Shown here one piece after another: positions 526 through 1,290 of a stretch of 64,000 nucleotides of DNA (its first letter is position 1; every line of letters begins with the position of its first letter). The stretch is taken from assembly GCF_057098645.1 (NCBI RefSeq), contig NZ_CM169472.1; one strand, given 5' to 3'. The notes under the pieces were generated by a model. The model was not told the origin of the DNA. It did not search any database and saw only the letters and a list, made by a program, of their open reading frames with translations. A program made the translations under genes and the position numbers.

Positions 526-669
526 CCTGTTTACCTCTTTCTCAGGGAGTTTAGTCTCCAGGATTCCCGGGGCGGTTCAACCGGAAATCAAAACAACTGA
601 CGGCGAGGTGACTTGTGTTGGTCGCCAGAAAATGAAATTAGGCAGCAAACCACTTATTTGAGGTGAGAT

Positions 670-1140
670 ATGACAAAATCATGGAGCGTACCTTTTCCTG
701 AATCAGAAACTGAACATGATGGAATGCCTGTTTTCTGGAGATTCCAGGCGACAGTTGAAGAAGATGGGATAAAAATATTCGCACTTCAATATATAGCTTT
801 TCATCAGACAGAGCATTATGCATGGTTGGTTCCTGCGCATTGGATTGTTAATTTTAAACCAGCACCAAATCAGTGGTTACAGGAATGGAAACAAAGGAGA
901 AATAGATATGCAATTAAGAAAGTAGCAAAAAATGCAGAAAGATCTTTTGCATTCCCAACGAAGAAACTTGCCATTGAAAGTTTATTGCGCCGGAAGAAAT
1001 ACCATTTAATGAGAATCAAACAAGATTTGGCTGTTGTATCAACTCTTGTTGATGGTATGAAGAATATTGATACATCAACACCAGATATTGAATATAACTT
1101 TGGACACAACCAAGAAACAGAAAATTGGGTATTTTATTAG
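670..1140 (+). CDS. hypothetical AT-rich prophage accessory (moron) protein, 156 aa, no recognisable family
   Basis: Intact ORF with strong RBS GAGGTGA 6 nt upstream; low GC relative to flanks; sits between IS end and terminator/ea10 in the pL-like operon. Confidence 0.6.
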   Translation: MTKSWSVPFPESETEHDGMPVFWRFQATVEEDGIKIFALQYIAFHQTEHYAWLVPAHWIVNFKPAPNQWLQEWKQRRNRYAIKKVAKNAERSFAFPTKKLAIESLLRRKKYHLMRIKQDLAVVSTLVDGMKNIDTSTPDIEYNFGHNQETENWVFY

Positions 1141-1244
1141 TACGAATAAGCACTGTGTATTCATTCCAACGAGTGAATACACGGAGCAATGTCGCTCGTA
1201 ACTAAACAGGAGCCGACTTGTTCTGATTATTGGAAATCTTCTTT

Positions 1245-1270
1245 GCCCTCCAATGTGAGGGCGATTTTTT
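1245..1270 (+). terminator. rho-independent terminator-like hairpin (GCCCTC-caatgt-GAGGGC) followed by T-run, upstream of ea10
   Basis: 6-bp GC-rich stem plus TTTTTT seen directly in sequence. Confidence 0.55.
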
Positions 1271-1290
1271 ATCTGTGAGGATATGAACAG

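What the first reader, a model, noticed from the sequence alone, without database searches (positions are those of the whole stretch)
580..1290. Unassigned AT-rich moron ORF at the head of the lambda-like pL operon
ORF 670-1140 (156 aa) has a strong RBS, intact frame and markedly lower GC than the flanking Red genes. It sits where lambdoid phages carry ral, sieB and other early-expressed host-takeover, anti-restriction or superinfection-exclusion genes. I recognise no motif in it (no TM segments, no nuclease or methylase signature). A terminator-like hairpin at 1245-1270 and a separate 9-bp palindrome GTGTATTCA...TGAATACAC at 1155-1182 follow it.
Basis: inference. Interest (0 to 1): 0.55.

Follow-up and report, generated by a model that had tools for sequence, protein, structure and literature searches.

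The report
Uncharacterised early gene in lambda's Ral slot
The ORF is a real, already catalogued but functionally unknown phage gene (HK97 gp45 / Shiga-toxin phage 933W L0079) occupying the swappable slot where phage lambda carries its anti-restriction gene ral; it is a fair candidate for a new counter-defence protein, but in this genome an insertion sequence has cut it off from its promoter.

Summary
ORF 670-1140 is intact, has a GAGGTGA ribosome-binding site, is AT-rich (GC 36%, against 50-52% for the Red genes), and is followed by two hairpins.

It is not new as a sequence. It is 100% identical to 933W L0079 and 99.4% identical to HK97 gp45 (PHROG 1636, function unknown).

- **Cassette.** The gene is an exchangeable cassette. 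In 78 viral contigs the same 30-nt 5' junction and the same 3' hairpin flank bracket ten unrelated first genes, including lambda orf28-ral. Both hairpins belong to the lambda-shared flank, not to the gene.
- **Expression.** In intact phages it lies between N and the first intrinsic pL terminator. Published EDL933 RNA-seq shows it transcribed at the level of N and induced 11-fold by SOS.
- **Function.** My best guess, from inference only, is a stoichiometric binder acting immediately after infection, most probably in counter-defence.
- **"Moron" label.** It is only partly apt, because the gene has no promoter or terminator of its own.
- **This window.** An IS629-like element sits 90 nt upstream and truncates N, so this copy is probably poorly expressed.

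The parts
1..579 (-). End of an IS629/IS1203-like IS3-family insertion sequence (orfA 199-525; frameshift pseudoknot 128-244). It interrupts the phage N gene.
   Evidence: ORF list. Rfam ALIL pseudoknot, 120.9 bits. Identity with 933W starts only at 580. E. coli genome hits are annotated as IS3-like element IS1203 family transposase.
580..611 (+). 3' remnant of a 933W/H-19B/HK97-type antiterminator N gene (last 9 codons RKSKQLTAR plus stop).
   Evidence: Alignment to 933W, 933W annotation, translation.
637..666 (+). Conserved 5' junction of the cassette slot, ATTAGGCAGCAAACCACTTATTTGAGGTGA. It carries the shared ribosome-binding site (GAGGTGA, 660-666).
   Evidence: Present with 4 or fewer mismatches in 78 of 120 viral contigs, upstream of ten unrelated first ORFs. 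A diverged version precedes orf28 in lambda itself.
1150..1290 (+). Conserved 3' flank, 99% identical to lambda 34,045-33,905 (the ral-ea10 intergenic region). The cassette's right boundary lies about 10-14 nt after the stop codon.
   Evidence: A 44-nt core is found exactly in at least 120 viral contigs.
1155..1182 (+). Perfect 12-bp hairpin (loop CAAC) with no U-run. It is part of the shared flank. Role unknown.
   Evidence: No Rfam match.
1243..1270 (+). Intrinsic terminator (8-bp stem plus T6). It is the first strong terminator of the pL transcript in 933W/HK97-type phages and is read through after induction.
   Evidence: Annotated as a putative terminator in HK97. Transcript level drops 4-fold across it in uninduced EDL933 and not at all after SOS induction.
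1291..1659 (+). ea10 (DUF2528), the next pL gene. cIII, kil, gam, bet and exo follow.
   Evidence: cIII thermoregulator RNA at 1719-1777.

Best explanation
**Shown**
- The ORF is a genuine protein-coding accessory gene of the HK97 gp45 / 933W L0079 family.
- It is a self-contained cassette in the hypervariable "Ral accessory region" of lambdoid phages. It starts at a shared ribosome-binding-site junction and ends about 10 nt before a shared hairpin/terminator flank. In other phages it is replaced by orf28-ral, an Nmad5-like gene, orf184 of Silas et al. and others.
- In intact phages it is co-transcribed with N from pL, upstream of the first intrinsic terminator. It is therefore made at once on infection or induction, before N antitermination is needed.

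**Inferred**
- The product is a soluble 18.6-kDa alpha+beta protein. It has a conserved basic face (net +13 over residues 74-115), conserved aromatic residues on a three-stranded sheet, and a 33-residue helix. It has no conserved catalytic-type residues, no domain fusions and no obligatory partner gene.
- It therefore most likely acts stoichiometrically, by binding a nucleic acid or a host protein.
- Because of its timing and slot, the most probable purpose is to neutralise a host defence, or otherwise condition the cell, for the incoming phage. This would be analogous in role to Ral, though not in mechanism.
- In this particular window an IS629-like element has cut N 90 nt upstream. This copy is intact but probably poorly or abnormally expressed.
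For: **Identity**
- 100% nucleotide identity to 933W and many Stx phages.
- 99.4% protein identity to HK97 gp45.
- Full-length match to PHROG 1636, E = 2.7e-112.

**Coding reality**
- Homologues down to 24% identity keep the same length and motif pattern.
- AF2 model with pLDDT 95.2 and pTM 0.82.

**Cassette**
- 78 viral contigs share both flanks. The first ORF is orf28(+ral) in 25, this family in 23, an Nmad5-like protein in 9, an 83-aa protein in 8, a 107-aa protein in 6, and five rarer genes in the remaining 7.
- HK97 has no ral.

**Position and timing**
- The order pL-like promoter, nutL, N, L0079, then the first strong terminator is seen in 933W.
- The N-ORF spacer has no significant structure.
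- Homologues at 44% identity also lie between N and kil.

**Expression** (EDL933; values as tabulated in the paper, apparently RPKM)

|---|---|---|---|---|
| LB | 200 | 274 | 64 | 17 |
| SOS-inducing antibiotics | 1890 | 3123 | 3757 | - |

Source: PMC4048457.

**Non-enzymatic binder**
- Only G33, T47, K87 and A101 are nearly invariant.
- pI 9.07, no Cys, and a basic centre.
- No Pfam, NCBIfam or PDB sequence hits.
- No domain fusions among the 46 family members with E <= 0.001.
- Neighbouring genes vary from locus to locus.

**Counter-defence theme of the slot**
- Ral inhibits type I R-M.
- Silas et al. rank "Ral" accessory regions among their top-scoring regions.
- They also show that orf184, which is identical to the 107-aa slot-mate found here, triggers the gop-beta-cII abortive system.
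Against: - There is no direct functional evidence for this protein anywhere I could search. It was not among the 200 accessory genes tested by Silas et al..
- The slot also holds a predicted membrane protein (phrog_3054), so it may not be purely a counter-defence locus.
- One contig carries ral and this gene in tandem, so the two are not simple functional alternatives.
- More distant homologues sit deeper in early operons, next to recombination genes, methyltransferases or Rha-like regulators. A basic face fits a role in the phage's own DNA or RNA transactions equally well.
- There are no homologues on conjugative plasmids or in their anti-defence leading regions.
Confidence: 0.45

Rival explanations
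1. It is a prophage-expressed defence or superinfection-exclusion gene: a true moron, like lambda sieB/rexAB or HK97 gp15, that protects the lysogen against other phages.
For: - AT-rich foreign composition.
- In lambda the neighbouring interval holds sieB.
- Another slot occupant is a predicted membrane protein.
- The different 83-aa slot gene of Sp5 could not be deleted from a lysogen (PMC5155283).
Against: - No promoter-like site lies upstream on the coding strand.
- Its level matches N in every condition listed and rises 11-fold with SOS, as expected for a pL transcript.
- No TM segment.
- No credible PADLOC hit: the best is Cas1_II at E = 0.018 over 45 residues.
- Structural relatives occur in phages that I recall to be virulent (N4-like phiAxp-3 and RG-2014; plus memory).
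- The HK97 authors did not label it a moron.
Confidence: 0.12
2. It is a nucleic-acid-binding factor serving the phage's own development. Examples would be modulating early transcription or antitermination, RNA stability, recombination or replication, or the lysis-lysogeny decision, rather than acting on host defences.
For: - Conserved basic face (+13 over 42 residues) and aromatic sheet residues.
- Immediate adjacency to N in 933W, HK97 and H-19B.
- Distant homologues lie downstream of RecT/YqaJ or next to a Rha-like regulator.
Against: - The gene is dispensable at family level. It is replaced by unrelated genes between identical flanks in otherwise similar phages and is absent from lambda.
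- No HTH or other known DNA-binding motif.
- No conserved repeat specific to this cassette that could serve as an operator. The nearby hairpin occurs with every cargo.
Confidence: 0.2
3. It is a host-takeover growth inhibitor, like Kil, that blocks a central host process (division, transcription or replication) early in lytic growth.
For: - It lies in the same operon segment as kil and cIII.
- Immediate-early timing.
- A small standalone protein with no enzyme signature.
Against: - The comparatively high uninduced signal in EDL933 cultures (274) argues against strong toxicity, although it may come from a spontaneously induced minority of cells.
- There is no similarity to any known inhibitor.
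Confidence: 0.12
4. This rival concerns this copy only. In the genome sampled here the gene is a silent passenger of a crippled prophage and contributes nothing.
For: - An IS629-like element lies 90 nt upstream and removes all but 9 codons of N from the pL side.
- The IS transposase is on the opposite strand, and no promoter-like site reads into the ORF.
- Without N, transcription should stop at 1243-1270. This is an inference from N antitermination in lambda.
- A frameshifted copy exists elsewhere (L057), showing that the gene can decay.
Against: - The ORF is 100% identical to that of inducible phages, so any silencing is recent.
- Read-through from pL across the IS, or an outward IS promoter, cannot be excluded.
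- The window starts inside the IS, so the upstream part of the prophage is unseen.
Confidence: 0.4

Closest known systems
Lambda Ral (with orf28), restriction-alleviation protein (PHROG 1055, Pfam PF11058)
   Same: It occupies exactly the same slot: the same 5' RBS junction motif and the same 3' hairpin/terminator flank upstream of ea10. Both are small early pL accessory genes, dispensable and exchanged horizontally.
   Different: There is no sequence similarity. Ral is 66 aa and Cys-rich; this protein is 156 aa and has no Cys. In lambda, sieB and the sequence around it separate N from orf28-ral, whereas here the gene follows N directly. Ral's activity (enhancing type I modification) was not tested, and nothing here suggests it for this protein. 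One contig carries both genes in tandem.
orf184 (UDP0184) of Silas et al. 2023, trigger of the gop-beta-cII abortive-infection system
   Same: It is another occupant of the same accessory region. The 107-aa protein MEALVVERSEDG... is found in 6 of my 78 contigs at the same junction. It too has no known molecular function.
   Different: It is an unrelated sequence (phrog_1372 against phrog_1636). orf184 has an experimental phenotype; the 156-aa protein was not in that screen.
HK97 morons (gp15, gp22, gp23) as defined by the HK97/HK022 genome authors
   Same: Atypically low GC, inserted between conserved genes, and followed by a terminator.
   Different: It has no promoter of its own. The terminator belongs to the shared flank. 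Expression follows pL and N rather than the prophage state. It is not labelled a moron in the HK97 record.
T7 Ocr / plasmid ArdA-type DNA-mimic anti-restriction proteins
   Same: They are the first genes expressed on DNA entry. They are small, non-enzymatic and act by binding (established knowledge). The timing is analogous.
   Different: DNA mimics are very acidic (pI about 4, as quoted). This protein has pI 9.07 and a basic face. There is no structural similarity to any solved chain.

Membership tests
HK97 gp45 / 933W L0079 family (PHROG 1636) | Full-length sequence match to the family profile | tested here: met
   phrog_1636 E = 2.7e-112, residues 1-156 of 156. 99.4-100% identity to HK97 gp45 and 933W L0079.
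HK97 gp45 / 933W L0079 family (PHROG 1636) | Location in the early-left (pL) operon of a temperate phage | tested here: met
   The gene is followed by ea10, cIII, kil, gam, bet and exo. Homologues lie between N and kil or upstream of xis-int.
Moron (strict sense: autonomous transcription unit inserted in a phage operon) | Own promoter immediately upstream | tested here: not met
   No sigma-70-like site on the + strand upstream of the ORF, in the window or in 933W, other than pL itself. This is a consensus scan only, so a weak or atypical promoter is not excluded.
Moron (strict sense: autonomous transcription unit inserted in a phage operon) | Own terminator as part of the inserted unit | tested here: not met
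   The terminator at 1243-1270 lies in the flank shared with lambda and with all alternative cargos.
Moron (strict sense: autonomous transcription unit inserted in a phage operon) | Base composition different from neighbouring genes | tested here: met
   GC 35.7% and GC3 26.8%, against 50-52% and 55-61% for gam, bet and exo.
Moron (strict sense: autonomous transcription unit inserted in a phage operon) | Expression from the repressed prophage, independent of lytic genes | tested here: inconclusive
Ral antirestriction family (PHROG 1055 / PF11058) | Sequence similarity to Ral | tested here: not met
   No Pfam or PHROG match to Ral. The lengths and compositions are unrelated.
Ral antirestriction family (PHROG 1055 / PF11058) | Alleviation of type I restriction / enhancement of modification | not testable with these tools
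   Needs plating of unmodified phage on EcoKI/EcoBI hosts with and without the gene.
Known anti-phage defence proteins (PADLOC-DB 2.0) | Profile match to a defence-system component | tested here: not met
   Only Cas1_II, E = 0.018, 12.4 bits over residues 70-114. This is treated as chance.
SieB/Imm-type membrane exclusion proteins | Transmembrane segments | tested here: not met
   Maximum 19-residue hydropathy is 0.56, and GRAVY is -0.59.
GIY-YIG (UPF0213) fold, considered because of a weak PDB sequence hit | GIY/YIG motifs, catalytic Arg/Glu, and fold similarity | tested here: not met
Rho-independent terminator (feature 1243-1270) | G+C-rich stem-loop followed by a U-run, with reduced downstream transcript | tested here: met

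The most novel reading that the evidence does not exclude
The gp45/L0079 family is the founding member of a structurally new class of immediate-early phage counter-defence proteins. It would be a basic binder of nucleic acid or nucleotide that disables a host immune system, or serves as its decoy. Structural relatives are spread from lambdoid prophages to virulent phages of several other bacterial groups. In Shiga-toxin phages it would help determine which E. coli strains can be converted.
Probability: 0.25. Interest if true: 0.6.

Novelty: new member of a known kind. Interest (0 to 1): 0.35.

Why it matters
- The gene is present in HK97, H-19B, 933W and most Stx1a and many Stx2a converting phages, and on more than 1000 contigs of E. 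coli and Shigella.
- In EDL933 under SOS-inducing antibiotics it was, with N and ea10, among the most highly transcribed of the BP-933W early-left genes tabulated.
- It sits in an accessory region that an independent screen ranked among the most variable in coliphages. That region has already yielded one anti-restriction protein and one abortive-infection trigger.
- If the protein is a counter-defence factor, it would add a new fold to that repertoire and bear on the host range of Shiga-toxin phages.
- If it is not, the practical result is still useful. The slot's exact boundaries are now defined, ten alternative cargos are listed, and this gene is flagged as an untested occupant.

Tried and rejected
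**Sequence-based searches that found no characterised relative**
- Pfam, on the single sequence and on the 36-member alignment: nothing below E = 0.008.
- NCBIfam: nothing.
- PADLOC: only Cas1_II at E = 0.018, rejected as chance.

**Structure-based searches**
- Foldseek against AFDB50 and BFVD: only uncharacterised phage or prophage proteins. Two are labelled "Transposase" with nothing to back the label.

**Searches for functional context**
- A profile search for domain fusions found none.
- Repetitive hits P0043, P0045 and P0047 from the representative search are spurious low-complexity or repeat matches.
- Plasmid search: only phage-like, non-mobilisable records, with no link to leading regions.

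**Literature**
- "L0079" and "HK97 gp45" gave nothing relevant. The gp45 in the OLD preprint belongs to phage HK578.
- Sp5 ORF21 (ECs1180), which could not be deleted, is a different 83-aa occupant of the same slot, not this gene.
- Silas et al.'s orf184 is likewise a different slot-mate. Strings from the 156-aa family are absent from their gene list.

**Other**
- Rfam found nothing for the intergenic hairpins.
- I prepared a tandem-fusion alignment to test homodimerisation with AlphaFold but did not run it. The tool returns no interface information, so the result would not have been decisive.

Full report
**1. What is in the sequence**

ORF 670-1140 (+) encodes 156 residues from an ATG preceded by GAGGTGA at 660-666. 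Its GC content is 35.7% (GC3 26.8%). For gam, bet and exo downstream, GC is 50-52% and GC3 is 55-61%. The protein has no hydrophobic segment long enough to span a membrane, no cysteine and a pI of 9.07. Residues 74-115 carry a net charge of +13, while both termini are acidic.

The terminator-like site is an 8-bp stem at 1243-1264 followed by T6. The palindrome is a perfect 12-bp stem (1155-1166 with 1171-1182).

**2.

- Positions 1-579 are the end of an IS629/IS1203-like IS3-family element. Its orfA lies at 199-525 on the minus strand, and Rfam finds the ALIL frameshift pseudoknot at 128-244.
- Identity with phage 933W begins at exactly 580. Positions 582-611 encode only the last nine residues of a 933W-type N protein. 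The IS has therefore cut N 90 nt upstream of the ORF.
- Downstream lie ea10, cIII (with its thermoregulator RNA), kil, gam, bet, exo, orf60a/63/61-type genes, a DksA-like zinc-finger gene, two larger genes of unknown function and a TorI-type excisionase (7050-7250).
- Host genes follow: dsdC, dsdXA, emrYK and evgAS.
- The phage DNA in the window is thus only about 6.7 kb: the early-left arm of a prophage at the KplE1/CPS-53 site.

**3. Identity**

- The 711-bp finding is 100% identical to 933W, Min27, phi24B, BP-4795 and many Stx1a/Stx2a phages. In 933W the ORF is L0079, the first gene after N.
- The protein is 99.4% identical to HK97 gp45 and is also present in H-19B.
- It matches PHROG 1636 (unknown function) over its full length at E = 2.7e-112. 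It is found on more than 1000 contigs, always as "hypothetical" or "prophage protein".
- Searches of the paper library for L0079 or HK97 gp45 returned nothing on it.

**4. It is an exchangeable cassette in the Ral slot**

From about 1150 rightward the window is 99% identical to lambda 34,045-33,895, the interval between ral and ea10. Both hairpins therefore belong to a flank shared with lambda.

A 44-nt core of that flank occurs exactly in at least 120 IMG/VR contigs. In 78 of them, a 30-nt sequence that ends in the ribosome-binding site (window 637-666) lies upstream. Between the two flanks the first ORF starts at the same ATG position but belongs to ten unrelated families:

| First ORF between the flanks | Contigs |
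|---|---|
| lambda orf28, followed by ral | 25 |
| the 156-aa family (one copy frameshifted) | 23 |
| a 207-aa protein that PGAP names Nmad5 family | 9 |
| an 83-aa protein (phrog_2471) | 8 |
| a 107-aa protein (phrog_1372) | 6 |
| five rarer genes | 7 |

Further points:
- Lambda itself has a diverged version of the 5' junction directly before orf28.
- HK97 has no ral.
- One metagenomic contig has ral and the 156-aa gene in tandem.
- The cassette is therefore the ORF itself, from its ATG to about 10 nt past its stop. The RBS, the hairpin and the terminator are common property of the slot.

This slot has been recognised independently. Silas et al. (bioRxiv 10.1101/2023.04.06.535777) list "Ral" accessory regions among their highest-scoring variable regions. 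They show that orf184 from that region triggers the gop-beta-cII abortive system. Their orf184 sequence is identical to my 107-aa slot-mate. The 156-aa family is absent from their list of 200 tested genes.

**5. Expression**

In 933W the order is: pL-like promoter, nutL, N, L0079, then the first strong intrinsic terminator, which corresponds to window 1243-1270. The 58-nt N-ORF spacer has no significant structure.

|---|---|---|---|---|---|
| LB | 200 | 274 | 64 | 17 | 81 |
| Trimethoprim-sulfamethoxazole | 1890 | 3123 | 3757 | 283 | 252 |

The gene is thus transcribed with N. A 4-fold drop occurs across the terminator when the prophage is uninduced, and the drop disappears on induction. This is what N antitermination predicts.

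One caveat: EDL933 may carry a second, identical copy in its Stx1 prophage, so reads may be shared between copies.

For the copy in this window, the IS insertion into N and the absence of any promoter-like site reading into the ORF make normal expression doubtful. This is an inference.

**6. The protein**

- Close homologues (56-85% identity) are confined to Enterobacterales prophages.
- An exhaustive search adds a shell of 130-155-aa proteins at 24-36% identity.
- In the 36-sequence alignment only G33, T47, K87 and A101 are nearly invariant. Conserved motifs are (Y/F)(Y/W)(R/K)(Y/F) on strand 1, H-E-T at the end of strand 2, KKVxK...R-x-FAF-x-T, xRKxxxL on the long helix, and a C-terminal GHxxxTExxxF.
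- AlphaFold2 gives a confident model (pLDDT 95.2, pTM 0.82). It has three long antiparallel strands (19-55), short helices, a fourth strand (83-86), a 33-residue helix (98-130) and an ordered C-terminal tail.
- Foldseek against AFDB50 and BFVD finds only uncharacterised proteins. These come from Pseudomonas, Pantoea, Ferrimonas and similar genera, and from phages of Erwinia, Achromobacter, Delftia, Rhizobium, Tenacibaculum and Cellulophaga.
- No family member is fused to another domain, and the neighbouring genes differ from locus to locus.
- Homologues at 44% identity keep the position between N and kil in two different mosaics.
- There are no copies on mobilisable plasmids.

**7. How it most likely works**

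*Shown:*
- It is a real gene and an exchangeable cassette.
- It is immediate-early, co-transcribed with N ahead of the first terminator.
- It is soluble, has a basic centre, and shows no known fold or family.

*Inferred:*
- It lacks any conserved catalytic-type residue set, has no partner gene, and has a conserved basic/aromatic surface. It therefore probably acts by stoichiometric binding to a nucleic acid, a nucleotide or a host protein.
- It is made before anything else except N, and it occupies a slot whose characterised occupants are an anti-restriction protein and an abortive-infection trigger. The most probable purpose is therefore counter-defence or host conditioning. I put that functional reading at about one in three.
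- Rival readings are a role in the phage's own nucleic-acid transactions (about 0.2), a prophage-expressed exclusion function (about 0.12) and a Kil-like host inhibitor (about 0.12).

**8. Comparison with what is known, and verdict**

- The gene is a member of PHROG 1636 (tested and met).
- It is positionally allelic to lambda orf28-ral but is not a Ral homologue (tested and not met).
- It fails two of the defining features of a moron, an own promoter and an own terminator, and meets only the compositional one. The HK97 record does not call it a moron.
- It is not a DNA mimic of the Ocr/ArdA kind, because it is basic and has no structural match.

The finding is therefore a correct observation of an already catalogued gene of unknown function. 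What this work adds:
- the exact cassette boundaries and the list of alternative cargos;
- the transcription evidence;
- the absence of any solved structural analogue;
- the IS disruption in this genome.

Interest is moderate to low. A specialist would not be surprised by an unknown early gene. It is, however, a well-placed and still untested candidate in a proven accessory region of medically relevant phages.

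Noticed in passing
window 1-611: An IS629/IS1203-like IS3-family element ends at 579 and has inserted into the phage antiterminator gene N, leaving only its last 9 codons (582-611). This probably cripples N-dependent early-left expression of the prophage. In O121 Stx2 prophages an IS3-family element sits in the neighbouring slot gene (Nmad5-like) instead (L013).
   Followed up: partly
window 1155-1182 (lambda 34,013-34,040): A perfect 12-bp hairpin with no U-run is conserved base for base in at least 120 viral contigs and in lambda, whatever gene precedes it. It is not in Rfam. It could be an RNA-processing or stability element, or a recombination junction. This is unresolved.
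   Followed up: partly
window 637-666 and 1150-1290; loci L015-L134: The N-to-ea10 slot is a hypervariable cassette site with a fixed RBS junction and a fixed 3' flank. Ten unrelated first ORFs were counted in 78 contigs. Several cargos end in ...KAA, as Ral does, which suggests that the right-hand crossover often lies inside the last codons.
   Followed up: yes
L021 (IMG/VR metagenome contig), 884-1876 minus strand: ral and the 156-aa gene occur in tandem in one contig, so the slot can stack cassettes.
   Followed up: no
L057: A frameshifted (84-aa) copy of the 156-aa gene, showing occasional decay.
   Followed up: no
Sp5 (Sakai Stx2 prophage) ORF21/ECs1180, same slot: According to PMC5155283, the 83-aa gene between N and ea10 in Sp5 could not be deleted from a lysogen. 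An 83-aa family (phrog_2471) occupies the slot in 8 of my 78 contigs. I did not verify that it is identical to ECs1180.
   Followed up: partly
window 1719-1777: Lambda cIII thermoregulator RNA element (Rfam RF01804, 88.5 bits) overlapping the cIII start.
   Followed up: no
window 7050-8374 and beyond: A TorI-type excisionase ORF (7050-7250) abuts dsdC (7433-8374, minus strand), followed by dsdXA, emrYK and evgAS. The prophage therefore occupies the KplE1/CPS-53 site, and no integrase lies at this end. tRNA-Ala x2 at 48765-48955 (-); tRNA-Val x3 plus tRNA-Lys at 53401-53798 (+).
   Followed up: partly
window 1-1300 against complete E. coli genomes: None of the 15 best-ranked records among 5,426 complete E. 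coli genomes reproduces this IS-N-ORF junction in one piece at 99% or better. The best single-piece match is 95.7% (strain 14EC001). The source strain, or this insertion, therefore appears uncommon among finished genomes.
   Followed up: no
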